A stretch of 64,000 bases of DNA, taken from Bacilli bacterium (GTDB taxonomy: Bacteria; Bacillota; Bacilli; Tumebacillales; Tumebacillaceae). The stretch is from the NCBI GenBank assembly GCA_035776695.1, contig DASTWJ010000190.1, forward strand, positions 9,724 through 73,723, written 5' to 3'. The notes beneath the pieces were generated by a model. It saw only the letters and a list, made by a program, of their open reading frames with translations. It did not search any database and had not been told where the DNA came from. The position numbers and the translations under genes are program-made. Shown piece by piece: positions 24,172 to 49,597 of this stretch (position 1 is its first letter; every line of letters begins with the position of its first letter).

Positions 24172-25737
24172 TCACTCCTCCTGTTCTTCCTTGTGACGTC
24201 CGTGCCGTTCCCGCCGTGGCGGCAGTTTCATGCCCGGCTCCCACGGTACTGCCTGTTCCCGCAGTTGCTCCGCCACTTCCGGGTGCAACACGGGGTACCC
24301 GACTCGCTGTTGGCGCTTGGTCGCTTGTACCGCCGGCGGCAGTCCCTTCCGGCGACGACCGCCGTTCGGGTCGTGAAACGCGTAGAACAACAGGCGATCC
24401 GTTTGTCGAGACAACTGTAACAGCGTCACCCCCAAGGCGATGACACACCCGACGAGATACCCGCTGCCCGGCGACCATCCGAACGCCATCGCAACGCTCA
24501 CTCCGCACAACAAAGCCAAGACCGTGACGATCACCGACCACACCGCCTGTTTGCGCGCATCAAAATACAGCAGCAACAAAAACGCCGTGATCCACAGCAT
24601 ATGCGGAATCGAACCGATGATCGTCCATTGAAACACGTCGATCACATCGGGGTAGCGGCTTTTCACCTGCTGCGCCAACACCCACGCGATCAAGGCGACG
24701 ACCGACTGCAGCTTGGCCATGCGCATCAGAGCCGTTTTCGTCGCCGTGCGCAAGTCCTCTTCCTGCACCCGTACGATCGCCAGCGTCTCCCCCGACTCGA
24801 TCGCGTCATAAAACCGTCGAAACACCTGATAAAAGTCGGTCTCGATATGCACCGAGAACAGCGTAAACGCCGGAATCAACGCCAGAAACGTCCAGAACTT
24901 CGCCAAGTCATACGACGGCTGCAACCAATAGCTGCCCGCCACCGTCACATGCTCAGGCGACAACCAGCGCATGCTGTTGTCCACCCACAGCGTCAACGCA
25001 TAGAACAGGCCGATCCACAACAGTTGCGGGTAGCGCCGATGGTGCGCTTTGACCCCGTACAGCGAAGGCACATCCCCCGGAAAGTCGCGCACGACAACGC
25101 GCCCCAACCGGATCAGCGTCAGCACCTCCGCACCCGTAAACAGCGCCAGCACCGCCGTCGAACTCGGCGTCTCCCCTTGCCCGTGCAGCCAGAACGTATA
25201 GCCGAACAGCACGACCGCGATCACCAGCAACCCGAACAGAAACCCGCGGGCGATGTCCCGATAGGCCCTCGCCGCCGACAACAGGATCATCGTCAACCCC
25301 ATCTGCGTCAGAACGACGGCCAACAGCACCGTCCAGACCTTATACGCCATCGGCAGCGGCAACAGCGCCTGAAAACCGCCGAACAGCGCGACCGCCGCCA
25401 CCCCCGTGTAGGCAAACACGCCGGAAAACGCGCTCAACAGCCGTTGCGGCGCATCGACATACAACGCATCGGCGAGATACCGCGTCAGGAAAAACTGCGC
25501 CGTCGACGAGATCAGATTCGACCCGATCATGCAGTAGGTCACCGTCGCGAAAAAAAGATCGCGTTGCCCCTGCCCCATGCCGTACGCCATCCCCCACATC
25601 AGGATCAGAAACAGTGACAACAAGGTCAGCAACCACGGTCCGGCCGCCACAAACGATGCCGCGCCGTACAGCTTCCAACGCCGGTAGCGTTCCGCCTCCC
25701 CCAAGGCTTTGCGCAAAGTAAATCCGATGCCTGCCAT
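24172..25737 (-). CDS. pelG: Pel exopolysaccharide transporter PelG
   Basis: MAGIGF.LRK start, AAGPW, YD...F, VHIETDFY..FRRFY; follows pelF. Confidence 0.9.
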   Translation of the reverse strand: MAGIGFTLRKALGEAERYRRWKLYGAASFVAAGPWLLTLLSLFLILMWGMAYGMGQGQRDLFFATVTYCMIGSNLISSTAQFFLTRYLADALYVDAPQRLLSAFSGVFAYTGVAAVALFGGFQALLPLPMAYKVWTVLLAVVLTQMGLTMILLSAARAYRDIARGFLFGLLVIAVVLFGYTFWLHGQGETPSSTAVLALFTGAEVLTLIRLGRVVVRDFPGDVPSLYGVKAHHRRYPQLLWIGLFYALTLWVDNSMRWLSPEHVTVAGSYWLQPSYDLAKFWTFLALIPAFTLFSVHIETDFYQVFRRFYDAIESGETLAIVRVQEEDLRTATKTALMRMAKLQSVVALIAWVLAQQVKSRYPDVIDVFQWTIIGSIPHMLWITAFLLLLYFDARKQAVWSVIVTVLALLCGVSVAMAFGWSPGSGYLVGCVIALGVTLLQLSRQTDRLLFYAFHDPNGGRRRKGLPPAVQATKRQQRVGYPVLHPEVAEQLREQAVPWEPGMKLPPRRERHGRHKEEQEE

Positions 25738-27143
25738 TACAGTCGCACCGCCTCATCGTATAGATTGCGATATTCTTTCATCACGCTTCGCAGCGTGTAG
25801 AACCGACTGACGCGGGTTCGACCGACTTTGCCCATCAACCGCCGCAGCACGAGGTCATCGGCCAGCTCCAACAGGGCGGCACCGGTCTCTTCGGGCGTCA
25901 TCAGTTTGGTGACCAGACCGCACCGCCCGAACTCGTCCCCTTCGCCGCCTTCGATCAGCTCGCGGCAGGCGCCGACATCGGTCGCGACCACCGGCAATCC
26001 GGCCGCCATCGCCTCCAGCATCACCAGCGGCTGCCCTTCGGAGATCGATGTGAGCACGAGGCAATCGAGGTGAGGCAGGTAGTCGCGGATATTCACCGGC
26101 CCCGTCCACTCCACCGCCTCTGCGATGCCCAACGATTCGGCCAGCGCCAAGCACTCCCGCGCATACTCCGCATCCTCATCGAGCGGCCCGAGCAACAACA
26201 GACGCGCCTCGGGCAACCGCCGCAACACGACGGCAAAGGCGCGAAGCAGCGTCTTCACATCTTTGATCGGCACCACCCTTAAAATCGCCCCGACCGTGAA
26301 GCTTCGTCCCGCCGTCGGTTTGATCTCGGCATACAGCTCCGGATCGACCCCGTTGGGAATCAGGCGCAACTTCACCGGCGACGCGCCGTACTCGACCTGC
26401 GCCCGCTGGTTCACTTGCGACAACGTGGTGACAAACCGTGCCGCCGCATACCCCGTCTGCGCCACTCGAATGAAAAAATCATGCCAAAATCGCTTCAGCG
26501 TCAGGGGTACCCAATCGGCCCGCACGATCTCCTCCTCCCGCTCGCGGGTGTAGATGCCGTGCTCGGTGATCACCAGCGGCGTTTTTTGCAAACGGTTCAC
26601 GACCGCTCCGTACCAGCCCGCATAGCCGGTCGACGCGCTGTGCATCAACTGCCCTTGCGGCAACGGCGCCCGCATCAGGCGCAACAGCGGCAGCCACATC
26701 GACCGCCAGTTCCAGACAAAATCGACCAAGGCCGGCGGCGTCGCTTGGCGGCGATAGACGTCCATCGCCGCCTCCCACGCCCACTCCGCTTCCAAGATCG
26801 CCTCGGCGCTCGGGGTCTTGCGCGCGGAACGCACGACCTGCAGGGTGGCACGAGAAGGCAACTCGCCCGTTTGCAAAAAGCGAGTCATCTCCTCTCGCTC
26901 TCGTTTGCGCCACCACTTCAGACGCCCCGTGCCCTTCTCTTCTTCATGCAAGTAAATCTCCTGCACCCCTTTTACGTTCGAAGGCAGTTCGTATTTGTAT
27001 GTCGCATTCTTCATCCGCATCGCGCCGATGTAAACGAGCGTAAACTCACAATCCGGCAGCGAGCGGATCAACTGATGCGTCCAAGAGGACACCCCGCCTT
27101 GCACATACGGGTAGGTGCCCTCCAGGAGCAACGTGATCTTCAT
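25737..27143 (-). CDS. pelF: GT4 glycosyltransferase PelF
   Basis: LEGTYPYVQGGVSSW, HSASTGYAG, TEHGIYTRER, IKDVKT, EGQPLVMLE (EX7E). Confidence 0.93.
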   Translation of the reverse strand: MKITLLLEGTYPYVQGGVSSWTHQLIRSLPDCEFTLVYIGAMRMKNATYKYELPSNVKGVQEIYLHEEEKGTGRLKWWRKREREEMTRFLQTGELPSRATLQVVRSARKTPSAEAILEAEWAWEAAMDVYRRQATPPALVDFVWNWRSMWLPLLRLMRAPLPQGQLMHSASTGYAGWYGAVVNRLQKTPLVITEHGIYTREREEEIVRADWVPLTLKRFWHDFFIRVAQTGYAAARFVTTLSQVNQRAQVEYGASPVKLRLIPNGVDPELYAEIKPTAGRSFTVGAILRVVPIKDVKTLLRAFAVVLRRLPEARLLLLGPLDEDAEYARECLALAESLGIAEAVEWTGPVNIRDYLPHLDCLVLTSISEGQPLVMLEAMAAGLPVVATDVGACRELIEGGEGDEFGRCGLVTKLMTPEETGAALLELADDLVLRRLMGKVGRTRVSRFYTLRSVMKEYRNLYDEAVRL

Positions 27144-28996
27144 CGCTTCACCTCCAGAACCACTTGCGGTCCTGTCACTTTCACCCAGAGCAGGTCGTAC
27201 TCGCCCTGCCGCCCGACGATCTCACCGCCTCGCACCGCCTGCCACCGCTCCGGCGCCTCAAGGTGCAGTTCCAGAAACACGGGACCCGACAGCGGTGTGA
27301 CATAAGCGGTGACGCGCTCGTCTTGCGAGGCGTCGATTCGAACCTCGGCCGCCTGATAGCGGCGCAAGGCGTCGGCCAACTCGGTCGCCGTCACCGGTTG
27401 GAGAAAAGAAAACCTGTCTTGCACGCTCCCCACGACGCCCTCAAACGCATCGCGCAGTTCGTTCCACGTTTTGCCTTGGTTGCGGTCCTCGTTGAACACA
27501 TCGTCCGGGTGGTTGAAATGCGACACGATGCCGATGTCCGCAAGCCCCGCATACAAGTCATGAAGTTCATCCTCGGACAACGCGTAACCATACGTGATCC
27601 GCGGCGTGCCCATCACCTGCGGGAAGTCGGGATCGGGCGCGAATTCCTGCTCCAGCGCCCCTCCCGCCTCATCCGCCTGATACAGCGACGAGATCGTCTT
27701 CAACTCGGGGAACACGCGCAAGAGCACCTGCTTGCCCTCCGGACTGAGGATGTTCGAAGGCGGGATGTAGAACGTCGGCAACCGCCCATACGCCTCCTGC
27801 AACCATCGCGCACGGGCGAATCGCAACGCCTGCTCCATCTCGGCGACGGACGGCCAAGCGGGATAGCCCAAATCCGCCTCCTGCTCCTCCGTATAGGCGA
27901 GCGTCAACGGCATGTGATTGTACCCGTGCAAGCCGAGCTCTCCCGTTTTCTCCATCAAGCTCGTTTCAAACCCATACAGCTTGGCAAAAGGGTCTCTGTT
28001 AAAGGCAAACGGCGGCTTCACCCGGTCGTTGTAGATCAAGATCGCACCGCTCGAATACCGGATGCCGTACTTGCGGGCGATCTCCTGCATGTCGGGGTCC
28101 CAGCGCTGCAAGCGAAACTGAAAGTCGGTCAACCCCGTCCGGTTCCCTTCCGACACGCGATCATAGGCGGGAGAGGGGAAATCGTCGAGAAACCACACCT
28201 GCGCCCCGACCATCAGTTTACCGCCCGCGCCTTGTGCCTTGAGCAGCGTTTGCAAAAAGGGGCCGCGCCACATCTTCTCCTGCAACAGCAGCGTGTTCCA
28301 ATACAAGGTGTGCCCTTTGCCCTGTTCTCTTTGCCACAGGTACGGCTCCACGCGGTCGCCTGTCGATTGCGCCCAGATCTTTACCTGCGGCGACAAACCG
28401 ACCGTCAGCGAAGAAGAAGTCACCCGCTCCGCACTGAGTTCCGCTTCCGACAGACCGGGGTAGATCGGCGCCGTCCACCGCCAGCCGGTCACCTTGCCTT
28501 TGACAAAATCGGGCTCCCCTTCGATGCCCATAAACGCATTGAGCGGCGACTCGGCGCTGCGGATCGCGTTGACGAGCAGACCGCCCTGTTCCCGCACATA
28601 GCGTTCCAGACGTTCGGTGTGCTGCAAGGTTGCCTGTCGTTCCCCGATCAGGATGATCGCGCCGTCTCGATAGGCGTCGAGCTTCCCGTCGAACTTGTTC
28701 CATTCGGCAAATGACATCTCGTCATAAGGCAGCTTGGCATTGGTCAACGCCCGCTCCAGATTCGCTAACGTCAAGTCGGCTTCTTCAATGTCCTGTTTCG
28801 CATGATGCAACAACAGGTACCGCTGGTAGCGACTCTCGGGGATGTCCGTGCGATACGTCTCCCCATAGGTGAGCGCATCGCGTTTCTGATGCGAGGTCTG
28901 CCACCAATCGGTCACCCGCAGCGACGTTGCCGTCACCGCCGTGACGATCAGAAGCAGATACGCGATCTTCCGTCCCTTCGTTCGCCAAAAGGCCAT
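27140..28996 (-). CDS. pelA: DUF2194 protein, Gram-positive PelA deacetylase-like
   Basis: N-terminal TM; FLDDFPSP, ELGLHGYNH.PL, SHFNHPDD; position between pelE and pelF; ATG 28996. Confidence 0.8.
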   Translation of the reverse strand: MAFWRTKGRKIAYLLLIVTAVTATSLRVTDWWQTSHQKRDALTYGETYRTDIPESRYQRYLLLHHAKQDIEEADLTLANLERALTNAKLPYDEMSFAEWNKFDGKLDAYRDGAIILIGERQATLQHTERLERYVREQGGLLVNAIRSAESPLNAFMGIEGEPDFVKGKVTGWRWTAPIYPGLSEAELSAERVTSSSLTVGLSPQVKIWAQSTGDRVEPYLWQREQGKGHTLYWNTLLLQEKMWRGPFLQTLLKAQGAGGKLMVGAQVWFLDDFPSPAYDRVSEGNRTGLTDFQFRLQRWDPDMQEIARKYGIRYSSGAILIYNDRVKPPFAFNRDPFAKLYGFETSLMEKTGELGLHGYNHMPLTLAYTEEQEADLGYPAWPSVAEMEQALRFARARWLQEAYGRLPTFYIPPSNILSPEGKQVLLRVFPELKTISSLYQADEAGGALEQEFAPDPDFPQVMGTPRITYGYALSEDELHDLYAGLADIGIVSHFNHPDDVFNEDRNQGKTWNELRDAFEGVVGSVQDRFSFLQPVTATELADALRRYQAAEVRIDASQDERVTAYVTPLSGPVFLELHLEAPERWQAVRGGEIVGRQGEYDLLWVKVTGPQVVLEVKR

Positions 28997-29000
28997 CGCC

Positions 29001-29999
29001 TCACACCCCCTTGCTCCGCCGCAGTTCGACGAGACCGCGCACGTCGTCCGGCAAGTGCGCCGGGTCTTGCACACCCCGCACCCACTCGCGGACGCCCTCC
29101 TGATCCCCTCGCGCATAGGCGACCCGAATCAGCACGGCGCGGGCACGGTCGAGAATCTGCGGCGCGATATAGGTGGAGAGCCAGTGCATCGCTTCCCCTT
29201 CGGCCTCTTCGATCCGCCCCAAGGCAAACAGCGCGTCCGCTTTTTGCAAGCCGATCATGGGCTGTTCGGGTTGCAACCGCAGGCTGCGCTCCAAGGCAAG
29301 CCATCTTTTTTCCTGATAAAAGCGATTGAGTTCCGCACCCGCGATGTCCTGCACAATCAAGGCGCGGTAGACGGCCGCCAGTTCGTTCCACAAGGTCGCA
29401 TCCTCCGGTCGCCTGTCCAGCTCCCGTTCGATGTCGTTGATGCGGGCGGTGTGTACCGCTTCGGCGTGAGACAGCAGCGAGGCGGCGTAATAACGCACCT
29501 CCGGGTCGGCATCGGATAACGCCTGACGCACGACCTTCGCTTCGATCGAAGAGCGCATCGTCTGCAGATGGAGCAACGTCCGCTTTTTCAAAGCGGTGTC
29601 TTCCCCCTCCAGCACGTCGATCAGCGGCACGACATCGAGCACATCGTTCCAGTCGATCGCCGAGCGGTAGACCGGCAGCTGTTTCGGCATGTCCTGCCAC
29701 GCACCTTGCAAGTTGCCGACCTGACTCGACCAAAACGCCGCGACAAAAGAGCCGACGCCCGGCATCAGCAGCGCGTTGAAACCGATCAGCGCTTGACGAG
29801 AACTCCACGGGCGAACCGAAGAAAAAGGCTGGGCGAGATAGAGAACGAGCAGCATCAACGCCGTCCGCAGAACAAGCGGCCAGAGCGTGGCGGTTCGCAA
29901 GGCGAACACAAGCAGGGCAAGATCGACAAATCCAAACCAGCCAAACAGAAAGATCGAACGCAAATGACGCGACCCGATCGGTCGACGCTCCTCCCGCAT
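29001..29999 (-). CDS. pelE: PelE-like membrane protein with HEAT/TPR repeats
   Basis: 3 TM segments, ALSDADPEVRYYAAS HEAT repeat, TPR-like C-terminus; operon position. Confidence 0.7.
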   Translation of the reverse strand: MREERRPIGSRHLRSIFLFGWFGFVDLALLVFALRTATLWPLVLRTALMLLVLYLAQPFSSVRPWSSRQALIGFNALLMPGVGSFVAAFWSSQVGNLQGAWQDMPKQLPVYRSAIDWNDVLDVVPLIDVLEGEDTALKKRTLLHLQTMRSSIEAKVVRQALSDADPEVRYYAASLLSHAEAVHTARINDIERELDRRPEDATLWNELAAVYRALIVQDIAGAELNRFYQEKRWLALERSLRLQPEQPMIGLQKADALFALGRIEEAEGEAMHWLSTYIAPQILDRARAVLIRVAYARGDQEGVREWVRGVQDPAHLPDDVRGLVELRRSKGV

Positions 30000-30002
30000 T
30001 CC

Positions 30003-31295
30003 TTACACCTCCTTCGGAGCTTGGCATGTGTTGCTGACGATTCTCGCGCCCTTGAGCCGCACCCCGTCACCGCCGATGCGCTCCCAGATGCGCTTGGCGA
30101 CATTCATCGCCCGCTCCGGCTCCAACGTCGGCAAGAGCACGGCGACCGTCCGTTGCTCGCCGTCCCACATCACGAGGTCATAGGCGCGGATGCTCCCCGT
30201 CAACCGCTGGGTGATCAGCTCGGGGAACTCTTCCTCCGAGACGTCTGCGTCCGCCTCCAACTGCGCCTGCAAGATCGAATACGGAATCCCATACCGCTCA
30301 TGCCGCTGATGCTCGATCACACACTGTTGCTCGAAAAACGGCGCCCGCAACACCCGCGAGCGCGGATAGGTCGCCTCTTCGCGAATCGCGTCCTCATAGG
30401 CGGTGGCTCGCTCCAGCGAATCCCCCGCCCACTCGGCAATCACCTTCAGCAACTGCCGCGTGTCGGCCGTCACTTTTTCCAACGGCAGGCGGCGGATGAC
30501 GAGCAGGGCGTAGGTGCGACCTTGGCGCAGCACCGGCACGAGGTAGATCGGCGTCTCCTCGTCCGCTCCCACCTTCGGGAACGCCATCACGCTGTCTTTG
30601 GCAATCGCTTGGGCGAACACCTCATACCGGGCGATCTCCAGCGAATTCGGCCAGACCGCCTCGCCTTTGCGCACCGCCAAGCGCCCCCAGCGCCCGTCGT
30701 CCTCGATGCGGTACAAACTGGCCTGTTCGACTTGCAACAGGTCTTCCAATACGCCCATCAGCTCGAGCAGGATCTTGTCCACCGACAGCACGTTGAGCGA
30801 GCGGGCGATGGCGTACAGACGCGACATCGTCGCCGTCTGCCCGAGCACGCGCCCTTGCAGCTCCAACAACGCCGTCTCCGCTTGGCGCAATCGTTGCCGT
30901 GCTCCTTCCGCCTCCTGTTGTGAAAGATCCGCCTGATCGCGCAACCGCGACACGCGCCGCTCCCACGTCATCCGCATCTCCCCGAACAGATACCCGGCCA
31001 GAAACAAGGTCAACGGCGTCAGGTAGTGGGTCGGGTCGACGATCAGATACTTCCAGAACAGCTCGATCGGATACGGAGTCAAGGAGAGCAACAGCGTCAG
31101 ATAGACCGCCGATGCCAACAGCCCGCTCAGCACCCCGATCAACGTCCCCGCCGTCCACGCGCTATAGATCACGAGGATAAAAAACGGCGAGGGGTTAAGG
31201 CCGAGCAGCGACGACGTCGGAAAAAAGCCGACCAACAGCCCGACCCCGATCACCATCTCCAACACGCCGATCATCCTGCGCCTCCACGAGATCAT
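30003..31295 (-). CDS. pelD: PelD-like c-di-GMP receptor (TM, coiled coil, GAF, degenerate GGDEF)
   Basis: 4 TM, GLNPSPF; RAYD (RxxD I-site) with no GGDEF; AAGGAGG RBS before ATG 31295. Confidence 0.8.
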   Translation of the reverse strand: MISWRRRMIGVLEMVIGVGLLVGFFPTSSLLGLNPSPFFILVIYSAWTAGTLIGVLSGLLASAVYLTLLLSLTPYPIELFWKYLIVDPTHYLTPLTLFLAGYLFGEMRMTWERRVSRLRDQADLSQQEAEGARQRLRQAETALLELQGRVLGQTATMSRLYAIARSLNVLSVDKILLELMGVLEDLLQVEQASLYRIEDDGRWGRLAVRKGEAVWPNSLEIARYEVFAQAIAKDSVMAFPKVGADEETPIYLVPVLRQGRTYALLVIRRLPLEKVTADTRQLLKVIAEWAGDSLERATAYEDAIREEATYPRSRVLRAPFFEQQCVIEHQRHERYGIPYSILQAQLEADADVSEEEFPELITQRLTGSIRAYDLVMWDGEQRTVAVLLPTLEPERAMNVAKRIWERIGGDGVRLKGARIVSNTCQAPKEV

Positions 31296-31320: not shown

Positions 31321-31350
31321 AAAAACACCCTGCCGTCCGGTCAGGGTGTC
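31321..31350 (-). terminator. Terminator-like hairpin immediately upstream of the pelD RBS
   Basis: GACACCCTG-accggacgg-CAGGGTGTT then T run on minus strand. Confidence 0.65.
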
Positions 31351-31357
31351 GCACTTC

Positions 31358-33087: not shown

Positions 33088-33121
33088 AAAAAAAGACCGT
33101 CTCCCCGAAGGGAAACGGTCT
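33088..33121 (-). terminator. Terminator of the diguanylate cyclase gene
   Basis: AGACCGTTTCCC-ttcg-GGGAGACGGTCT plus T7 on minus strand. Confidence 0.75.
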
Positions 33122-36100
33122 ATTGGCCACCGCCCATCTCCCAGTGGCAGACGATGCGGTTCTTGCCGGTACGCTTCGCAAACGTTTCCGCTTGGTCCGC
33201 TTTTTCGATCAGATCGAGCGGGTCGACCGGCTTGTCCATGTCGACCGACGCGACGCCGATCGAGGCGGTGATCTGGTAGCGATTGCCTTCGATCGGGATG
33301 TTGCGCAGCGATTGCAAGATGCGCTCGGCGACGATCTTCGCCGCATGGCCGTTGGTGTTCGGCAGGATGACGATCATCTCCTCCCCGCCGAAGCGGCCGC
33401 AGATGTCGACGTTGCGCACGGAGCGCATCAACGTCTGCGCCACCGCCCGTAGCACGCGGTCCCCTTCGTTGTGGCCGTAGCGATTGTTGACCAGCGAGAA
33501 ATTGTCGAGGTCGAGCATCAGGAAGGACAGGTCGACCCCGTAGCGGGTACACTTGTTGAACTCCTCCTGCAAGCGCTTCTGGAAGTAGTTGCGCTGGTAG
33601 AGCCCGGTCAGGTTGTCGGTGATCATCACTTCATACATGATCGCGTTCTCCACGTTGGAGGACACCAACTGGGCAAACGAGTTGATGAAGCGCTTGTCCC
33701 GCACGGTGAACGGCGTCTGCAAGCTCAGTTTCTCCAGCACCATCACCGCGATCACCTGCTGGTCATGCGAGAAGACGGGGAGCCCATAGAAGTACGAACC
33801 GCGCCCTTCCTGCTCATACGGCTTCTCCTGGGCGATCACCGTCGAGATCATGTTGTCCACATCCGAGTCGACCGAACTGAGCGCCTGCAACTGCTCGTTC
33901 AGGTGAATCTCCTCCACCCGATCCGGCGAGATGCGGATGTACAGGTGCATCTGGTCGAACAGCAAGTTCTCAAACGCGACGGACGCCACGTTTTCGCAGA
34001 CGGTTTTGACCATGATCGACGAGGAGACGCGACGGATCGCATCGAGCAGGATCTCGTTGTCAGTCAGCGTGTCGACCATCTCCTGCCGCTCAAAGGCGAT
34101 CGTCTGTGCCCATTCTTTCAAGCGGACACCGCCATCGGCGATTTTCATCGAAGCGTCTTCGTCGAGGTGTTCCGTCTCCTGTTGCATCTTGTCGATGATC
34201 GCATCGGCGACGCGCACCATCTCCTGGTTGGTCTGGCGCATCAACTTGTCGATCTCGCCGAGGCGCGTCTGCTGGTTCAGCTTGCGAAAGCCCATCATCG
34301 CCCGCTTGTAGTTCAAGTTGGCGTGGACGAACTGGTGCGTCAGCTGGTACAGGCGACCGAGGTAGAAGTGCGCGCGGGCCAAGTAGCCGACATAGCCTGT
34401 CTTATGAATCAGCTTTTGCAACGATTGCGCCACTTCCAACGCCTCGTGCCAGCGACCCGTATCGAGCAGCCCTTCGATCAGCAACAGGCTGCGCTTGATC
34501 CGAACTTCGGTCGGCGTCTCCTGCTGGTCGTACATCGACATGAACAGGTCGACCACCTTGGACGGATCGCCTTTCGCCAATTGATACTTGGCTCCGAGGA
34601 TCTGACGGTCATTCTCCATCTTGCGGTTGGTGCAAATCCGTTCGACGATCGGCCACATCCGGTCGCATTTGTGCAGTTCCCCTTGCTCGACAAAGCAATT
34701 GAAGCGGTTGAGAAACGCGTAATCGCGCATCTTTTTGCGCCCGGTGCGCTTGGATGCCTTGATCAGCGCATCGATCACCTGATGCGCCTTGGTATAGTCC
34801 TCGATGAACATGAAGTGCTCGATCTCATTTTGCAGAAGCAGCGTGTTGTCGTCCTTAAACACCGCTTCCCCCGTATCCCGCGCTTTGACGATGTACGAAT
34901 AGGAATGGTACATGTCCCCGAGCAGGCGGTAGATCTCGACCAAGTTGATGTACGCGATCGCTTCCTTGCTCTTGTCGCCGAGGTCGGACGCCAACTTGGC
35001 CGATTGCAGGTAATAGTCCTTGGCTTTCAGCGGCTCCGTCTCCTGCAGGCCGATCGCCATGCAGTTGTAAATGCCGACGAGAATCTGACGCAAGTTGTGA
35101 TGCTCCGCCAACGACGCCGCTTCATGCAGGTAGCGGGCCCGCTTTTCCCAACGCACGTTCGGCACGTTGGTGAGCAACACTTGCAAATTGTACAGCCAAG
35201 AGATGTAGTCGCGCACCGGCAACTGACGACGTAGTTCCGCTCCGTTGCGCTCCTGGAACTCCTCCATCACCGAAGTGTACTCGTAATTGCCGTCCACCTC
35301 AATAAAATACATGCCGAGCACGACCATCAGGTAAAGGCGCTGACGGGCACGCAGTTCATTTCCCGACAGTTGGGCTTCGATCAGCGGGACGTACGGCTTG
35401 ATCGAGTGAAAATGCCCCATGTTCACATAGGTCAGGTTCAACGTGGTCAACGAACGCAGCGTGCCGGTGCGTTCATACAATTCCTTGTACGCGCTGGCCG
35501 CTTCCTCCAACGAGCCGAGCATCCGCAAGACGCGGGCCCGGAAGTTCAGCAGCGAATTGGGGCATGGGCGACCGAGGCGGTCGTACAATTCCATCGCCTT
35601 GCGCCCTTGCCATTCGGCGTCCACCAGCAAGTTGCGGATGTAGCAACGCCGAGCGCCCAACAGGTAAAAATAAATCGCTTGCGCCAACTCGTCTCCGCAT
35701 TCGAAATGGTGGGCGATCTCCATATATTCGGTCGTCCCCGTCTCCATCAACCCGTGTGCCAAACGGCGGTGCAGGTCGGCGCGCTCCTCGCCGGAGATCG
35801 ACTCGGCGATGTGGTTTTTCACGTTGTTGGACGGGAAACGGTACAGGTTGTTATTTTGCAGCAGCAAGCCTTGGTCTTCCAACTGCTTCAACAGTTGCAG
35901 AACTTCGGTCAGCGAGTTGACATGAGCCACTTTTGCGATCGCTTCGAAGACAAAAGACCCCTTGAACAAAGCCAGGAGCTGACAAAGTTCCTTCGCCTTA
36001 TCCGGCAACTGTTCCAGTCGATACAGAATCAGCGATTCCAGCGATTCGGGGATGTTCAACTTCTCCACCGACTCCGGCACCATGTGCCAGACATAGCGCA

Positions 36101-37685
36101 ACATGTAGATCTGCTTCGTATCGGACAGGTACTCCAGCAGGTGAAACGCTTTCTCCAGCGAGCCTTGGCTGTGGTGACTGATCCACTGGATGAAATCCGC
36201 GTTCAAAAAGTCGGCATCCCCCAACCGGGAGAGCACCACTTCCCGCAGCTCCTGCGACGACAACGGCTCCAAGTGCAACTGCTCTTGGAACAGGCTCTTC
36301 AACGCCGGCGTCGACTTCTCCGACACGCCGATCAAGCCGAACACCATCGTCTCGCGCTGCAACAGCCGTTTGAAGAAGTTGGATGAGTCGCTGTCGAGCA
36401 GGTGTGCGTCATACAACTCGAACACCATCGGCTCGCCGTACGTCTCGATGACTTCGGTGAAAAAGTCGAACAACAGACCGTCCGGCTCAACCTTGTCCAT
36501 GTCGCCTTCGCGCACGGGGTTCAACAGGTCGCGGTACTCATAACCGATCCGCGGCAGAACGCGGCTGAGCAGGTTGACGTATAATTTGCCGATCTTTTCC
36601 AGCCTCGGCACCGCGAAGCAGAGCTTAAACAGCTTCATCGCGATGTCCTCGACCACCCAATACGAGTAGTCGCGCACCGTGGCCGAGATCGAAGATACGC
36701 TGTGCATGTAGCGCCCCGACACCTCATAGACCAACCGCTTGCGCCCGACGCCGGACATGCCGGTCAACAGCAAGGTGCGACGCTCGCCCTCGACCATCTC
36801 CTCATAGAACTGCGACAGGCGCTTCGTTTCCTCGACCCGTCCGGTGAACTCGGCCGAGAACAACTGTTGCGAGCCGTACGTTCTGCCTTCGATCGGACAG
36901 AGGATGTCGTGGTTGCCGAGCACGCGGCGCAGCTCATCGACCACCTGCCCGATCCATTGGTATCTCGCCGTCGGCTTGCCGTTGATCATCTTCAAGATCA
37001 AACGGTCGAGCTGTGGCGGGATATGCTCGTTAAACTGAGACGGAGGATGCAGCGTCTCCGCTTCATCGCCAAACGGGAATGAACCGGTCAGAACCAGATA
37101 AAGCAACACGCCGAGGTTGTAGATGTCCGTTCGCGCATCGAGCGGACTCATCGTCATCGTCTCCGGCGCGAAGAAATGGATCTCCTGCCCGCTGCCGCAC
37201 GCGTTGTACACAGACAGCGGCGAATCGGTGAACATCGTCAACAAGCGCACTTCCCCGCAAGGCAGCACCCAGATAAACTCCGGCACCAAGCCGCCATGCC
37301 ACAAGGTGTCTTCGTGCAAAGTAGCCACCGCATGGCAGACGTCCTTCAACACTTCCAACACAAGCGTCAACGGCTTGCCTTTTATATACTGCAACAAAGG
37401 CAATGCGCCTTCCATCGCTTCATAAACGATGTACGTCCCATCGGTCGACGGATACACGTCAAGCACGGGCATCATCGGGGTCGCATTTTGAAACAGGCGG
37501 GTCCGCAACACGATCTGCTCATGGCCGATAAACGACAGTACATGTGGCGGGATGCGCTGCAACAGCACCCGGCGCTCCGCTTCTTCGTCATAGCCGGAGA
37601 AACAGTCGCCAAAATAAGGGCTGCCCATCTGCGGCTCCCCTACGCGATATCGGGTTTCTACCAGCGTGCTTTTTGCTTCCGTCAT
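33120..37685 (-). CDS. Large diguanylate cyclase: pseudokinase, degenerate AAA/STAND NTPase, TPR, GAF, GGDEF
   Basis: APE and DIYNLG kinase motifs but HGG/MFT instead of HRD/DFG; GMSGVGRK Walker-A-like; DNLTGLYQR, DLDNFS..N..YGH..GD, RNVD I-site, RFGGEEM. Confidence 0.9.
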   Translation of the reverse strand: MTEAKSTLVETRYRVGEPQMGSPYFGDCFSGYDEEAERRVLLQRIPPHVLSFIGHEQIVLRTRLFQNATPMMPVLDVYPSTDGTYIVYEAMEGALPLLQYIKGKPLTLVLEVLKDVCHAVATLHEDTLWHGGLVPEFIWVLPCGEVRLLTMFTDSPLSVYNACGSGQEIHFFAPETMTMSPLDARTDIYNLGVLLYLVLTGSFPFGDEAETLHPPSQFNEHIPPQLDRLILKMINGKPTARYQWIGQVVDELRRVLGNHDILCPIEGRTYGSQQLFSAEFTGRVEETKRLSQFYEEMVEGERRTLLLTGMSGVGRKRLVYEVSGRYMHSVSSISATVRDYSYWVVEDIAMKLFKLCFAVPRLEKIGKLYVNLLSRVLPRIGYEYRDLLNPVREGDMDKVEPDGLLFDFFTEVIETYGEPMVFELYDAHLLDSDSSNFFKRLLQRETMVFGLIGVSEKSTPALKSLFQEQLHLEPLSSQELREVVLSRLGDADFLNADFIQWISHHSQGSLEKAFHLLEYLSDTKQIYMLRYVWHMVPESVEKLNIPESLESLILYRLEQLPDKAKELCQLLALFKGSFVFEAIAKVAHVNSLTEVLQLLKQLEDQGLLLQNNNLYRFPSNNVKNHIAESISGEERADLHRRLAHGLMETGTTEYMEIAHHFECGDELAQAIYFYLLGARRCYIRNLLVDAEWQGRKAMELYDRLGRPCPNSLLNFRARVLRMLGSLEEAASAYKELYERTGTLRSLTTLNLTYVNMGHFHSIKPYVPLIEAQLSGNELRARQRLYLMVVLGMYFIEVDGNYEYTSVMEEFQERNGAELRRQLPVRDYISWLYNLQVLLTNVPNVRWEKRARYLHEAASLAEHHNLRQILVGIYNCMAIGLQETEPLKAKDYYLQSAKLASDLGDKSKEAIAYINLVEIYRLLGDMYHSYSYIVKARDTGEAVFKDDNTLLLQNEIEHFMFIEDYTKAHQVIDALIKASKRTGRKKMRDYAFLNRFNCFVEQGELHKCDRMWPIVERICTNRKMENDRQILGAKYQLAKGDPSKVVDLFMSMYDQQETPTEVRIKRSLLLIEGLLDTGRWHEALEVAQSLQKLIHKTGYVGYLARAHFYLGRLYQLTHQFVHANLNYKRAMMGFRKLNQQTRLGEIDKLMRQTNQEMVRVADAIIDKMQQETEHLDEDASMKIADGGVRLKEWAQTIAFERQEMVDTLTDNEILLDAIRRVSSSIMVKTVCENVASVAFENLLFDQMHLYIRISPDRVEEIHLNEQLQALSSVDSDVDNMISTVIAQEKPYEQEGRGSYFYGLPVFSHDQQVIAVMVLEKLSLQTPFTVRDKRFINSFAQLVSSNVENAIMYEVMITDNLTGLYQRNYFQKRLQEEFNKCTRYGVDLSFLMLDLDNFSLVNNRYGHNEGDRVLRAVAQTLMRSVRNVDICGRFGGEEMIVILPNTNGHAAKIVAERILQSLRNIPIEGNRYQITASIGVASVDMDKPVDPLDLIEKADQAETFAKRTGKNRIVCHWEMGGGQ

Positions 37686-37987
37686 GAAACCTCACATCCA
37701 TTCATCCGAAACAGATTCTCCTAGCTAAATCTTAACACAAAAATAAATAAAAGTCATATACCTAATATTGAAGTTTATAAGGATAGTCGCTAGAAAAAGC
37801 TATTCTCAGATAATAACATACAACAGCCCGCCACTCGCTGTTAAGGTCAAAAAAGGGGGAAAACGGAATCTCTGCCGCAGCGTTGCGTAAAATGTACGAT
37901 TTTGGACACAAGTTACCAAAAAATCAAGAGTACGGTTTTTCAAAGTAACATGGTACAATGGTTGGGTAGAGAAAGGGGTGTAATCGA

Positions 37988-38323
37988 GTGAGCTTCAAAG
38001 GTGTAGCTATTGTACTCTTCCTTTTCCTGTTGGGCGTAGCTTTTAGTGGTTTTGCTTCTTACCAAAGCACGTTGACCCACGAGGAAATCGCGAAACCGGT
38101 TGACGCAGAGAAACTGGTTAAACAGAACTGCACATCCTGCCACGGCAAGGATCTGAAGGGCGATGTAGGTCCGAACCTGCACGAGCGCGGTCAGTTGTTG
38201 TCTGAGGAAGCGATCGCCGCGATCATCAAGGACGGCGTAAACGGCAAGATGCCGGGCGACCTGATCAAAGGTGACGAAGCCGTTGCGGAAGTCGCAAAAT
38301 ACATCACTTCTCTCGAGAAGTAA
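37988..38323 (+). CDS. cccA: Membrane-anchored cytochrome c550
   Basis: N-terminal TM, CTSCHG heme motif, GPNL, MPG axial Met. Confidence 0.85.
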   Translation: MSFKGVAIVLFLFLLGVAFSGFASYQSTLTHEEIAKPVDAEKLVKQNCTSCHGKDLKGDVGPNLHERGQLLSEEAIAAIIKDGVNGKMPGDLIKGDEAVAEVAKYITSLEK

Positions 38324-38347
38324 TAGCACGTATAGCGCGTGAAACGG

Positions 38348-38383
38348 AAAAGACAGGTGCCGCAGCTGAGCACCTGTCTTTTT
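38348..38383 (+). terminator. cccA terminator
   Basis: AAAGACAGGTGC/GCACCTGTCTTT plus T run. Confidence 0.75.
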
Positions 38384-38420
38384 GATTTTCTTCCCTCTCT
38401 GATCCGATCCCCCCATGTGA

Positions 38421-39631: not shown

Positions 39632-39762
39632 GGAAATATCCCCCTTTTTGGCAAACAGCCAATTCACACAGTAAATAAATAAAACCGTCTCTATCCATTC
39701 TCCCTGTATCTCGAAAATCCTTGTGACCGTTTGACGAAATTCGACATGGGAGGTGTGTTCGA

Positions 39763-40698
39763 ATGAAAATCGGAGTGGCTTTGAGCGGCGGGACCCTGCG
39801 CGGTGCGGCGCACATCGGGGTGCTGATGGAATTGCAGGAAGCGGGCATTCGACCGGAGATGATCGCCGGCACCAGCGCCGGCAGCGTCGTCGCCTCGATG
39901 TACGCGCACGGCTTTCATCCGAAGATGATCGCGAAGATCGCCACGCAGTCTTTTGAAGGCAGACAGTTGATCGACTGGACGACCAGCCTCTGGGACCTCG
40001 TGCGCTTTTTCGGTCATCTGCCACTCATCTTCACCGGCCTGTCCAAAAACTTCGAACGCCTCCTGCCGATCGGTTTCATCGCCGGGCGCAAGTTCGAAGA
40101 GTTTCTTGGCCGTACCTTCAAGCTCTCCCCCACGCAAAAGCCGATCCCGCTGCTGTTGAGCGCCGTCGACCTCTACAGCGGCGAGACGGTGGTGTTTCGC
40201 GACTCGCGCATCGCCGACCTGCACACCGGCTCCTACCGTTCCGTCGGCGTGAAAGACCCCGGCACGGTGATCCTGCCGCTCGACGACCCGATCACCGCTG
40301 TCCGCTGCTCCTGCTCGATGCCGGGGGTGTTCACCCCGCGCAAGATCGACGGTCGCACGCTGATCGACGGGGCGATTCGCAACAACCTCCCCGCCGAGTT
40401 GCTCTACGAAGCGGGTTGCGACAAAGTGATCGCCGTCGACCTGCTGAACGCCCGGATGGCCCCCGGCACGATCCGCACCTTTTTCGACGTGTTTATGCGG
40501 GCGTGGGACATCATGATGAACGAGATCACCGTGATGCAGTTGGAGAATGAAAACGTGTTCGTGCTCCAACCGACGATCGAGGATGTCGGCTGGACCGCGT
40601 TTGACAAACTCGACTATTGCATCGAGCAGGGACGACAGGTCGTGCGCGACAACCTGCAAGAGATCCAAGACTATATCAAAAAACCCACTCTGCGCTGA
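39763..40698 (+). CDS. Patatin-like phospholipase
   Basis: SGGTLRGAAHIG, GTSAG, DGA motifs. Confidence 0.9.
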   Translation: MKIGVALSGGTLRGAAHIGVLMELQEAGIRPEMIAGTSAGSVVASMYAHGFHPKMIAKIATQSFEGRQLIDWTTSLWDLVRFFGHLPLIFTGLSKNFERLLPIGFIAGRKFEEFLGRTFKLSPTQKPIPLLLSAVDLYSGETVVFRDSRIADLHTGSYRSVGVKDPGTVILPLDDPITAVRCSCSMPGVFTPRKIDGRTLIDGAIRNNLPAELLYEAGCDKVIAVDLLNARMAPGTIRTFFDVFMRAWDIMMNEITVMQLENENVFVLQPTIEDVGWTAFDKLDYCIEQGRQVVRDNLQEIQDYIKKPTLR

Positions 40699-49027: not shown

Positions 49028-49597
49028 ATGGGTATGTTTGAAGGCGCAAATATTCTCGTCAGCTCGACAAATTATTCCAACATGGGGCAGATCTATTTCG
49101 AACAAGGCGAACTGTTCGACGTCGTGTTCCCGACTGCATCGAACCTGAACATCGGCGATCCGGTAACCGCCACCGTTTATCATCAGAACGGGATTCTGAC
49201 TTTCCAATCCACCGTGATCGGCACCTTGGAAGACCGCGTGCTGCTGATCAAACCGCATCGCGAAGCAGGTCTGTCCGACCGCCGCGAATACCCGCGTTAC
49301 AACGTGGAACTGACCGCTACCGTCAACATCCCGACCAAGGGCGAAGTCGCCGCGACGGTCAAGGACGTTTCGCTGGGCGGCGCACGCTTCGAATCGGACA
49401 AGTACCTGGAACAGGGGCAGGAAGTCGACGTGCTGATCGACGCGGAGAACAACATCGAAGGCCGCGGCATCATTCGTCGTGTCCAACTCAAGGACGGCAT
49501 CTTCCACTTCGGCATCGAGTTTGTCCAAACGGACGAACTGCGCAAGAACCTGGAAGAATACCTCAAGCGCATCGAAGGCACCGCTTCGATCAACTAG
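49028..49597 (+). CDS. PilZ-domain c-di-GMP receptor (YcgR/MotI-like)
   Basis: RREYPR (RxxxR) and DVSLGG (DxSxxG) intact. Confidence 0.88.
   Translation: MGMFEGANILVSSTNYSNMGQIYFEQGELFDVVFPTASNLNIGDPVTATVYHQNGILTFQSTVIGTLEDRVLLIKPHREAGLSDRREYPRYNVELTATVNIPTKGEVAATVKDVSLGGARFESDKYLEQGQEVDVLIDAENNIEGRGIIRRVQLKDGIFHFGIEFVQTDELRKNLEEYLKRIEGTASIN

What the first reader, a model, noticed from the sequence alone, without database searches (positions are those of the whole stretch)
33120..37685. 1521-aa pseudokinase / degenerate STAND-like NTPase / TPR / GAF diguanylate cyclase beside the Pel operon
Seen: the kinase scaffold keeps APE and subdomain IX but lacks the catalytic Lys (VLLQR), HRD (HGG) and DFG (MFT). 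Walker A reads GMSGVGRK instead of GxxGxGK[ST]. A long helical repeat region and a GAF domain follow. GGEEM and the RNVD I-site are intact, and no TM segment is evident. Known: kinase-AAA-TPR-GAF architectures usually end in His-kinase outputs, and PelD needs c-di-GMP. Inference: a cytoplasmic oligomerising sensor with two dead enzyme domains that controls a cyclase, possibly the dedicated Pel activator. This is the best candidate for an undescribed system here.
Basis: partly seen in the sequence, partly recalled or inferred. Interest (0 to 1): 0.72.

Follow-up and report, generated by a model that had tools for sequence, protein, structure and literature searches.

The report
Dead-kinase, dead-NTPase c-di-GMP cyclase
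This is a real 1521-residue cytoplasmic signalling protein of a Tumebacillus-type soil bacterium in which a dead kinase domain, a burnt-out ATPase switch and helical-repeat and GAF sensor parts precede a c-di-GMP-making domain. It is an unstudied variant of a long-catalogued design, and comparative genomics argues against a dedicated switch for the neighbouring Pel biofilm-sugar genes.

Summary
ORF 33120-37685 (-) encodes a soluble 1521-aa protein with five parts:
- a kinase fold lacking the beta3 Lys, HRD, the catalytic-loop Asn and DFG;
- an AAA_16/STAND module with Walker A GxxGxGR[KR]R and no GxP proline;
- LGN-type TPRs;
- a coiled coil plus GAF;
- a GGDEF domain with GGEEM and an RNVD I-site.

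These degenerate motifs are invariant in 16 orthologues. dN/dS is about 0.1, so the dead domains are selected scaffolds, not decay.

New caveat: throughout the clade the GGDEF carries Ser at the position of PleD K332, and K at R446.

The gene is monocistronic. It lies 1.8 kb, four genes and two terminators upstream of pelDEA(DA)FG.

All 9 genomes of the GTDB family keep the gene. Only 6 have pel. In the 3 pel-less genomes it remains under strong purifying selection. Three more distant relatives are not next to pel. "Dedicated Pel activator" is therefore not supported; Pel (via PelD) is probably one output among several.

The kinase-TPR-GGDEF architecture was catalogued in 2005, and versions with all kinase and P-loop motifs exist. 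Verdict: a new variant of a known, unstudied kind, of moderate interest.

The parts
33120..37685 (-). Whole gene: 1521-aa pseudokinase / degenerate STAND NTPase / TPR / coiled coil-GAF / GGDEF protein (P0001)
   Evidence: ORF and translation. Pfam and NCBIfam domains. 18 full-length or near-full-length orthologues at 44-83% identity; the named ones are Tumebacillus or Tumebacillaceae.
36912..37685 (-). Pseudokinase domain (residues 1-258): bilobal Hanks-kinase fold. Beta3 Lys -> Gln or hydrophobic; HRDxKxxN -> WHG[GA]xxPxx (catalytic Asp and Lys lost in all, Asn kept in only one of 16 orthologues); DFG -> M[FLVY][TS]. FAPE and subdomain IX are kept.
   Evidence: PknB alignment. Family motif table. 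Comparison with relatives that keep all kinase motifs. AlphaFold model (pLDDT 76) matching PknA/PknB and the Rv3910 pseudokinase. dN/dS 0.09 for the C-lobe.
36336..36851 (-). Degenerate AAA_16/STAND nucleotide-binding domain (residues 279-450). Walker A is GMSGVGRKR (36735-36761), with no invariant Lys in the family. The Walker B acidic residue is mostly kept (YDAH).
   Evidence: Pfam AAA_16 at 27 bits, below cut-off. Collinear phmmer matches to thousands of Pkinase-AAA_16 proteins. Motif tables. dN/dS 0.12.
35766..36335 (-). Helical / winged-helix part of the STAND module (residues 451-640). The GxP motif reads G-S-L; the proline is lost in all 16 orthologues.
   Evidence: Alignment with relatives that keep G[NS]P. 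Secondary structure of the model.
34251..35765 (-). TPR / helical-repeat sensor region (residues 641-1145), LGN/Pins-like TPR_12 repeats
   Evidence: Pfam TPR_12, TPR_14 and TPR_2. Profile search against PDB hits GPSM2/Pins TPRs.
34071..34250 (-). Long helical (coiled-coil-like) linker (residues 1146-1205); the least conserved segment
   Evidence: Model helices 2-72. 39% mean pairwise identity.
33636..34070 (-). GAF domain (residues 1206-1350)
   Evidence: Weak Pfam GAF_3 hit. Model topology. Foldseek alignment over GAF plus GGDEF of 4zmu, 5llw and 6et7. BLASTP alignment to the GAF of P0020.
33141..33635 (-). GGDEF domain (residues 1351-1515). GGEEM at 33375-33389; I-site RNVD at 33405-33416. 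Equivalents of PleD D327, N335, D344 and K442 are kept. Clade-specific changes: K332 -> S, D336 -> N, R446 -> K.
   Evidence: Pfam E 1e-41 and TIGR00254 E 7e-45. PDB alignments. Family invariants. Motif survey. Residue roles from PMC7288161 and PMC12943098.
33094..33121 (-). Intrinsic terminator overlapping the stop codon (12-bp stem, 7 G-C pairs, T7 tail)
37686..37987 (.). 302-bp AT-rich divergent intergenic region with the gene's presumed own promoter and ribosome-binding site (GTGAGG, 6 nt before the ATG)
   Evidence: Sequence. Promoter-like site at 37844-37815. The upstream neighbour is on the opposite strand.
24172..31295 (-). Gram-positive-type pel operon, a possible but not exclusive downstream target:
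- pelD: 4 TM + GAF + degenerate GGDEF with RAYD, 30003-31295
- pelE: 28948-30027
- pelA(DA), DUF2194: 27140-29116
- pelF: 25737-27143
- pelG: 24172-25737
   Evidence: Pfam. PelD translation with RxxD. Gene calls in the nearest relative L023. The B. cereus paradigm, PMC7112168.

Best explanation
The gene encodes a soluble, monocistronic, signal-integrating diguanylate cyclase. It belongs to the Pkinase-AAA_16(STAND)-TPR-GAF-GGDEF architecture class. In this clade both ATP-using N-terminal modules have been turned into conserved, non-catalytic scaffolds.

Shown here:
- the domain order;
- loss of every catalytic kinase residue;
- loss of the Walker A Lys and of the GxP Pro of the nucleotide-binding domain;
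- retention of GG(E)EF, the metal- and guanine-binding residues and an RxxD I-site;
- purifying selection on all domains;
- core-gene status in the GTDB family, independent of pel.

Inferred mechanism:
- The pseudokinase, relic nucleotide-binding domain and TPR block act as a docking and oligomerisation platform that reads a protein, peptide or small-molecule cue without ATP turnover.
- The coiled coil and GAF domain transmit that state, and perhaps a second ligand, to set the geometry of two GGDEF domains. Two GTP-loaded half-sites then meet and make c-di-GMP.
- The product feeds back through the I-site.
- The c-di-GMP pool feeds several receptors: PelD (RxxD) where the pel operon is present, and PilZ proteins and others in all species.
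For: - Domains and motifs.
- Folds: kinase fold; coiled coil-GAF-GGDEF resembling Dcsbis and the phytochrome cyclases.
- Collinear homology with P0020, which keeps all kinase and P-loop motifs, over residues 71-767 and over GAF-GGDEF.
- Thousands of Pkinase-AAA_16 relatives.
- Purifying selection: dN/dS is 0.09 (pseudokinase C-lobe), 0.12 (NTPase) and 0.17 (GGDEF) against the closest relative.
- The same dead motifs occur in relatives at 32-36% identity: P0123, P0124 and P0125.
- Monocistronic: divergent cytochrome c gene upstream, strong terminator at the stop codon.
- Present in 9 of 9 GTDB-family genomes against pel in 6 of 9. Retained under selection in the pel-less genomes.
- PelD here has RAYD.
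- PilZ receptors occur in all nine genomes.
- The genome has about 10 GGDEF proteins.
Against: - No biochemical or expression data exist.
- The clade replaces the conserved Lys equivalent to PleD K332 with Ser. One paper calls K332 a transition-state stabiliser (PMC12943098); another says it binds phosphate through its backbone (PMC7288161). R446 is replaced by Lys. Cyclase activity may therefore be weak or changed.
- Oligomerisation and ligand sensing by the N-terminal block are inferred from homology to STAND proteins only.
- The structure models are of moderate confidence (pLDDT 68 and 76, from 7-sequence alignments).
- The ligand is unknown.
Confidence: 0.55

Rival explanations
1. Dedicated Pel activator: the cyclase exists to supply c-di-GMP locally to PelD of the adjacent pel operon, possibly by direct contact.
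For: - In all six pel-positive genomes of the GTDB family, pelG lies 7-16 kb downstream of the gene on the same strand. In the metagenomic contig L023 the whole pel operon follows it, pelD starting 2.2 kb downstream.
- PelD keeps an RxxD site.
- In B. cereus, Pel depends on a cyclase and on PelD (PMC7112168).
Against: - The two are separate transcription units, with four unrelated genes and two terminators between them.
- In T. lacus an RHS toxin gene is inserted between them.
- Three genomes lack pelG, and the pel operon is missing from this locus in all three. They keep the cyclase intact, with dN/dS 0.08-0.10 and GGEE and RxxD preserved.
- Orthologues P0017, P0013 and P0123 are not next to pel.
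- The adjacency sits inside a block of gene order that is conserved from mqnC to rlu.
Confidence: 0.12
2. Mostly non-enzymatic protein: the GGDEF domain is a poor or inactive cyclase because the K332-equivalent Lys is Ser. The protein would then act as a c-di-GMP or GTP-binding scaffold or effector through its I-site and half active site.
For: - The signature FS / NN / GK[ND] replaces FK / ND / GRN in every member down to 32% identity, but in none of the other nine GGDEF proteins of this genome.
- K332 is described as a transition-state stabiliser.
- Two other enzyme modules in the same protein are already dead.
Against: - GGEE and the equivalents of D327, N335, D344 and K442 are invariant. 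Degenerate receptor-type GGDEF domains usually lose the GG(D/E)EF motif (general statement in PMC7288161).
- According to PMC7288161, K332 contacts phosphate through its main chain.
- The GGDEF is the most conserved domain, at 78% mean pairwise identity.
- An I-site next to a dead active site would have nothing to inhibit.
Confidence: 0.15
3. A working STAND switch: the Arg-substituted P-loop (GxxGxGR[KR]R) still binds ATP/ADP or another nucleotide. Nucleotide exchange triggered by the TPR ligand would drive oligomerisation, as in MalT or PknK-type proteins.
For: - The glycines of the P-loop and two or three following basic residues are invariant.
- The Walker B acidic residue is kept in 14 of 16 orthologues.
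- The module is under strong constraint.
Against: - No Lys is invariant in the P-loop: position 316 is K or R, and position 315 is always R.
- The Ser/Thr that binds Mg is replaced by a basic residue.
- The GxP proline is missing in all 16 orthologues. From general STAND literature, not tested here, this proline packs on the adenine.
- P0123 has GTVQES in place of the P-loop end.
- Pfam AAA_16 scores below its cut-off, whereas relatives with intact motifs score 60-75 bits.
Confidence: 0.15

Closest known systems
Kinase + TPR + GGDEF giants (Clostridium thermocellum 1826-aa protein catalogued by Krupa & Srinivasan 2005, PMC1262709; metagenomic P0020/P0021 of 1724-1744 aa)
   Same: Same collinear order: Hanks-type kinase domain, AAA_16 module, TPR, GAF, GGDEF. 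BLASTP aligns P0001 residues 71-767 and 1309-1514 with P0020. No member has been studied experimentally as far as I could find.
   Different: P0020 and P0021 keep VALK, HCD..N, DFG, GxxGxGK[ST] and GNP, and have two GAF domains. The Tumebacillus clade has lost all of these motifs, has one GAF, and carries the FS / NN / GK[ND] GGDEF signature.
PknK-type proteins and MalT/LAL-type STAND regulators (Hanks kinase or other effector + AAA_16 nucleotide-binding domain + TPR sensor)
   Same: The N-terminal 700 residues match thousands of Pkinase-AAA_16 proteins end to end. The logic of a helical-repeat sensor behind a nucleotide-binding oligomerisation domain is the same.
   Different: Kinase and P-loop are both degenerate, and the output is a GGDEF rather than phosphorylation or DNA binding. 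The ATP-driven switching that defines STAND proteins is probably lost.
B. cereus CdgF / CdgE / PelD circuit controlling pelDEA(DA)FG (Whitfield et al. 2020, PMC7112168)
   Same: A cytosolic cyclase in a Gram-positive bacterium with the same type of pel operon and a PelD with an RxxD site.
   Different: CdgF is described as having GGDEF and EAL domains. Any similarity to P0001 outside the GGDEF domain was not tested here. Here the linkage to pel is not conserved with the gene.
GAF-GGDEF and sensor-coiled-coil-GGDEF cyclases with solved structures (Dcsbis PA2771, 4zmu; Idiomarina phytochrome cyclase, 5llw/6et7); I-site cyclases PleD and WspR
   Same: The C-terminal 370 residues model as helix / GAF / linker helix / GGDEF and match these structures. 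The RxxD site lies five residues before GG(D/E)EF, as in PleD and WspR.
   Different: A 1150-residue pseudokinase-STAND-TPR block precedes the module. The K332 equivalent is Ser.
Bacterial pseudokinase domains such as the intracellular domain of M. tuberculosis Rv3910 (MviN), 3otv/3uqc
   Same: A kinase fold without catalytic residues, used as a docking module. It is among the best Foldseek matches.
   Different: No detectable sequence relationship beyond the fold. A different partner and context.

Membership tests
GGDEF diguanylate cyclases (PF00990 / TIGR00254) | Profile match above the curated cut-off | tested here: met
   PF00990: 142.9 bits (cut-off 23.8). TIGR00254: 152.6 bits (cut-off 37.4)..
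GGDEF diguanylate cyclases (PF00990 / TIGR00254) | GG(D/E)EF active-site motif with the two acidic residues | tested here: met
   GGEEM at residues 1433-1437. GGEE is invariant in 16 orthologues; the fifth residue is M, L or I.
GGDEF diguanylate cyclases (PF00990 / TIGR00254) | Metal- and substrate-binding residues equivalent to PleD D327, N335, D344, K442, R446 and K332 | tested here: inconclusive
   The equivalents of D327, N335, D344 and K442 are kept. R446 -> K and K332 -> S throughout the clade. Roles from PMC7288161 and PMC12943098.
GGDEF diguanylate cyclases (PF00990 / TIGR00254) | RxxD inhibitory site five residues upstream of GG(D/E)EF (a feature of many members, not all) | tested here: met
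   RNVD at residues 1424-1427. R and D are invariant.
GGDEF diguanylate cyclases (PF00990 / TIGR00254) | Synthesis of c-di-GMP from GTP | not testable with these tools
   Needs an enzyme assay or a reporter strain.
Hanks-type Ser/Thr protein kinases (PF00069) | Bilobal kinase fold | tested here: met
   The model aligns over 265-290 columns with PknA, PknB and PIM1, with TM-scores of 0.6-0.7 normalised to the target. Pfam Pkinase scores 35 bits.
Hanks-type Ser/Thr protein kinases (PF00069) | Catalytic residues: beta3 Lys, HRD Asp, catalytic-loop Asn, DFG Asp | tested here: not met
   VLLQ, WHGG..F and MFT replace them. The same losses occur in all 16 orthologues, except that one keeps the catalytic-loop Asn. 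P0123-P0125 also lack the beta3 Lys, HRD Asp and DFG Asp. The domain is a pseudokinase, not a kinase.
STAND NTPases (AAA_16-type nucleotide-binding domain, MalT/PknK clade) | Homology of the nucleotide-binding, helical and winged-helix block, followed by a repeat sensor | tested here: met
   End-to-end phmmer matches to Pkinase-AAA_16 proteins. Collinear BLASTP with P0020. TPRs downstream.
STAND NTPases (AAA_16-type nucleotide-binding domain, MalT/PknK clade) | Walker A GxxGxGK[ST] | tested here: not met
   GxxGxGR[KR]R in all 16 orthologues. There is no invariant Lys and no Ser/Thr.
STAND NTPases (AAA_16-type nucleotide-binding domain, MalT/PknK clade) | Walker B acidic residue(s) | tested here: inconclusive
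   One acidic residue (YD/YE) in 14 of 16 orthologues, N or G in the other two; no second acidic residue.
STAND NTPases (AAA_16-type nucleotide-binding domain, MalT/PknK clade) | GxP motif of the helical domain | tested here: not met
   G-S-L or equivalent; no proline in any orthologue. Relatives with intact motifs have G[NS]P.
Pel-dedicated regulator (gene functionally bound to pelDEA(DA)FG) | Co-transcription or co-inheritance with pel | tested here: not met
   Own terminator and promoter region. The gene is in 9 of 9 genomes and pelG in 6 of 9. It is retained under selection without pel. Distant orthologues are not next to pel.

The most novel reading that the evidence does not exclude
The protein would be an NLR/STAND-like assembly platform that has dispensed with nucleotides altogether. 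A pseudokinase and a nucleotide-free relic nucleotide-binding domain, both under strong constraint, would gate second-messenger synthesis purely by ligand-induced oligomerisation (a TPR-bound peptide or protein, or a GAF ligand). The clade-specific K332 -> S GGDEF would be tuned so that it is silent unless assembled. That would be a new way of controlling a diguanylate cyclase, and an example of a STAND module working without its ATP switch.
Probability: 0.25. Interest if true: 0.65.

Novelty: new variant of a known kind. Interest (0 to 1): 0.42.

Why it matters
c-di-GMP cyclases are mostly understood through small sensor domains (REC, PAS, GAF, and membrane sensors such as Cache). How a 1150-residue STAND-like block controls a GGDEF domain is unknown, although the architecture has been in the databases since 2005.

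This clade is a clean natural experiment. Kinase chemistry and the ATP switch are both gone, yet the domains are strongly conserved, so whatever they do is structural or allosteric.

Showing how they gate cyclase dimerisation would extend the NLR/STAND paradigm to second-messenger synthesis. It would also explain a conserved core regulator of biofilm-related physiology in soil Bacillota.

For Pel biology, the comparative data remove an attractive but unsupported candidate for a 'dedicated' activator. They suggest instead that Pel is one of several outputs.

Tried and rejected
1. Operon membership with pel: rejected. There is a strong terminator at the stop codon, then four unrelated genes and a second hairpin before pelD.

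2. A conserved upstream partner gene: rejected. The 158-aa and 325-aa minus-strand ORFs that appeared conserved by tblastn are antisense shadows of a plus-strand cytochrome c gene and a plus-strand patatin gene.

3. Sequence search of PelD against PDB found nothing. This agrees with the published remark that Gram-positive PelD cannot be detected by BLAST or HMMER. PelD identity therefore rests on operon position, the GAF hit and the RxxD motif.

4. A profile search of the NTPase-TPR block against PDB sequences found only LGN/Pins TPRs and no solved STAND relative. Foldseek on the N-terminal model was dominated by kinases, so the fold of the nucleotide-binding domain was not matched independently.

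5. An Rfam scan of the window found no c-di-GMP riboswitch or other RNA near the gene, only a tRNA.

7. Literature: no paper links Tumebacillus and c-di-GMP. No paper was found on pseudokinase-STAND cyclases. The 2016 structural review of GGDEF catalysis is not in the library.

8. A Hypr-type altered product was considered and rejected, because the guanine-selecting Asp (PleD D344) is invariant.
Full report
**1. The object**

The window has an uninterrupted minus-strand ORF at 33120..37685, encoding 1521 residues.

Pfam finds:
- a partial protein-kinase match, residues 72-243, E 1e-8;
- a sub-threshold AAA_16 match, residues 279-447, 27 bits against a cut-off of 32.6;
- TPR_12 repeats;
- a weak GAF_3 match, residues 1293-1347;
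- a strong GGDEF match, residues 1355-1510, E 1e-41.

NCBIfam agrees: TIGR00254 at 153 bits. No named equivalog reaches its cut-off. The highest 19-residue hydropathy mean is 1.43, so no membrane segment is expected.

**2. The kinase-like domain is a conserved pseudokinase**

HMMER alignment to PknB and a MAFFT alignment with relatives that keep all kinase motifs place these substitutions:
- VLLQ where VA(L/I)K stands;
- WHGGLVPEF where H(R/C)DxKPxN stands;
- MFT where DFG stands.

FFAPE and the subdomain IX segment DARTDIYNLGVL are kept.

An AlphaFold model of residues 1-700 has mean pLDDT 76 from a 7-sequence alignment. It gives a complete bilobal kinase fold. The best Foldseek matches are PknA, PknB, PIM1 and the known bacterial pseudokinase domain of Rv3910.

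In 16 orthologues the degenerate motifs are almost invariant:
- WHG[GA];
- M[FLVY][TS]D;
- FAPE;
- a hydrophobic residue or Gln at the Lys position.

**3. The STAND-like module is also degenerate**

The N-terminal 700 residues match Pkinase-AAA_16 proteins end to end. In a search of 1.84 billion representative proteins, 6906 had E <= 1e-10. Against P0020, which keeps all kinase and P-loop motifs, BLASTP aligns residues 71-767 collinearly. Homology to the PknK/MalT type of STAND module is therefore secure.

The nucleotide-binding hallmarks are not:
- Walker A reads GxxGxGR[KR]R in all 16 orthologues. There is no invariant Lys and no Ser/Thr.
- The GxP motif of the helical domain reads G-S-L or similar, without proline, in all of them. 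Relatives with intact motifs have G[NS]P.
- A single Walker B acidic residue survives in 14 of 16.

I conclude, by inference, that the module probably no longer binds or hydrolyses ATP in the canonical way.

**4. The C-terminal output**

A model of residues 1150-1521 has pLDDT 68. It shows about 70 residues of long helix, a helix / beta-sheet / helix unit, a linker helix, and the GGDEF fold. Foldseek aligns it over 340-400 columns with the GAF-GGDEF cyclase Dcsbis (4zmu) and the phytochrome-coupled cyclase of Idiomarina (5llw, 6et7).

Invariant in the family:
- GGEE;
- the RxxD site five residues upstream;
- the equivalents of PleD D327, N335, D344 and K442.

This holds in every member of the clade down to 32% identity, but in none of the other nine GGDEF proteins of this genome.

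- The Lys in question (PleD K332) is called a transition-state stabiliser in PMC12943098. PMC7288161 describes it as contacting phosphate through its backbone.
- I therefore rate cyclase activity as probable, not certain.
- The guanine-selecting Asp is kept, so a Hypr-type product change is unlikely.

**5. The dead domains are selected, not decaying**

Against the closest relative (83% identity, locus L023), Nei-Gojobori dN/dS values are:

| Region | dN/dS |
|---|---|
| Pseudokinase C-lobe | 0.09 |
| NTPase | 0.12 |
| TPR | 0.14 |
| GAF | 0.13 |
| GGDEF | 0.17 |

Mean pairwise identity across 16 orthologues is 61% for the pseudokinase C-lobe. That is higher than for the NTPase (46%) and the TPR region (49-53%).

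Three more distant relatives (P0123, P0124, P0125; 32-36% identity) share the architecture. They also lack the catalytic kinase residues, the Walker A Lys and the GxP proline. P0124 has an added N-terminal EAL domain.

**6. Genomic context**

The gene is its own transcription unit.
- Upstream lies a 302-bp AT-rich spacer, then a divergently transcribed membrane-anchored cytochrome c gene (37988..38323, plus strand).
- The minus-strand '158-aa ORF' there is an antisense artefact.
- A 12-bp-stem terminator with a T7 tail overlaps the stop codon.

Downstream on the same strand come, in order:
- a 132-aa ORF;
- a GNAT acetyltransferase;
- an OsmC-like protein;
- a 68-aa zinc-ribbon protein;
- a second hairpin;
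- the pel genes: pelD (with RAYD), pelE, DUF2194/pelA(DA), pelF and pelG.

**7. Is it the Pel activator?**

| Genomes of the GTDB family (two genera) | With the gene | With pelG |
|---|---|---|
| 9 searched | 9, as an intact frame | 6 |

- In those six, pelG is 7-16 kb downstream of the gene.
- The three pel-less genomes include T. permanentifrigoris. They have the order cyclase, GNAT, rlu, with the pel operon missing from the locus.
- Their cyclases keep WHGA, the Arg P-loop, RxxD and GGEE. Among themselves they evolve at dN/dS 0.08-0.10, and 0.03-0.06 for GAF-GGDEF.
- In T. lacus a 1884-aa RHS-repeat protein is inserted between the cyclase and GNAT-pel.
- More distant orthologues sit elsewhere:
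  - P0017 lies between a HAMP-GGDEF-EAL gene and a sugar ABC transporter.
  - P0013 lies next to a shorter pseudokinase-TPR-GGDEF paralogue and a Wzx-like flippase.
  - P0123 lies next to an integrase.
- Gene order is conserved on both sides of the gene, from mqnC to rlu, in the Tumebacillus loci examined. Adjacency to pel within these genera therefore carries little functional information.
- PilZ receptors are present in all nine genomes, and this genome has about ten GGDEF proteins.

The data fit a core cyclase whose product reaches several receptors, with PelD as one of them where pel exists. They do not fit a dedicated activator.

**8. Comparison with what is known**

- 'Kinase + 6 TPR + GGDEF' was listed for a 1826-aa C. 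thermocellum protein in 2005 (PMC1262709).
- Metagenomic proteins P0020 and P0021 show the same order with all kinase and P-loop motifs intact.
- P0023 has a dead kinase but an intact P-loop.
- Earlier notes of this scan describe similar proteins in Clostridia, Thermotogota and other lineages. One of those notes led me to the 2005 paper, which I read myself.
- I found no experimental work on any member.
- The Pel paradigm in Gram-positive bacteria is PelD binding c-di-GMP at RxxD, with CdgF as cyclase and CdgE as phosphodiesterase. It comes from B. cereus (PMC7112168).

The present protein is therefore a new variant of a catalogued but unstudied kind. It is distinguished by the combined loss of kinase and P-loop chemistry, a clade-specific GGDEF signature, and restriction to Tumebacillaceae and a few uncultured relatives.

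**9. Verdict**

- Observation: confirmed.
- Interpretation: partly supported.
- Best explanation (confidence 0.55): a soluble cyclase, probably active, with feedback inhibition through the I-site. It is gated allosterically by a nucleotide-independent pseudokinase / relic nucleotide-binding domain / TPR platform through a coiled coil and a GAF domain, and it feeds PelD and other receptors.
- Interest is moderate. The mechanism would be new for c-di-GMP signalling, but the architecture is known, the organism is not a model, and nothing here is outside ordinary core-genome signalling.

Noticed in passing
window 37988-38323 (+) and 37940-38416 (-): The real gene upstream of the cyclase is a divergently transcribed, membrane-anchored class I cytochrome c (CxxCH; PF13442). 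The longer 158-aa minus-strand ORF over it is an antisense artefact that still gives tblastn hits in relatives.
   Followed up: yes
window 39763-40698 (+) versus 39691-40668 (-): The same kind of artefact: the plus-strand ORF is a patatin-like phospholipase. The 325-aa minus-strand ORF and the N-terminal 120 residues of the 392-aa 'CheR' ORF are not real. CheR is about 271 aa, as called in L023.
   Followed up: yes
window 49028-49597 (+): A 189-aa PilZ-domain protein (potential c-di-GMP receptor) lies 11.6 kb upstream of the cyclase. A PilZ gene sits 11-13 kb from the cyclase in three other genomes of the genus (G006, G007, G008).
   Followed up: partly
L004 14605-16006; L025 7000-8784; L026 6918-8716: In three Tumebacillus genomes the pel operon, together with the OsmC and zinc-ribbon genes, is missing between GNAT and the pseudouridine synthase gene. 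This suggests one deletion, or a later insertion in the other genomes.
   Followed up: partly
L027 (G000 contig C131) 304-8440 (-): A second, divergent PelF-like glycosyltransferase (DUF3492-GT4 with C-terminal TPRs, 588 aa). It is followed by three proteins of 360, 537 and 664 aa with no family match, and an ATP-grasp enzyme. The PelF-like gene is also present in the three pel-less genomes. This may be a different exopolysaccharide locus.
   Followed up: partly
L001 14775-20429 (+): In Tumebacillus lacus a 1884-aa RHS-repeat / YD-shell protein with a CBM96 module is inserted between the cyclase and GNAT-pel.
   Followed up: partly
L021 5431-8475 (+): In an uncultured relative the cyclase is followed by a 1014-aa paralogue that keeps only the C-lobe of the pseudokinase, TPRs and GGDEF, with no NTPase module. 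A Wzx-type polysaccharide flippase gene lies next to it on the opposite strand.
   Followed up: no
P0124 (1808 aa, metagenomic): A distant member of the same dead-kinase clade carries a full EAL domain fused to its N-terminus, giving EAL-pseudokinase-NTPase-TPR-GGDEF.
   Followed up: no
window 31321-31351 (-): A hairpin with a T-run (gacaccctgaccggacggcagggtgttttt) lies between the zinc-ribbon gene and the pelD ribosome-binding site, as an earlier first-reader note said. If it terminates, pel would need read-through or an unrecognised promoter.
   Followed up: no
genome G000, contig C255: Of the ten GGDEF proteins in this genome, only this one and one other (RPED...GGDEF, on contig C255) have an RxxD I-site in register.
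   Followed up: partly
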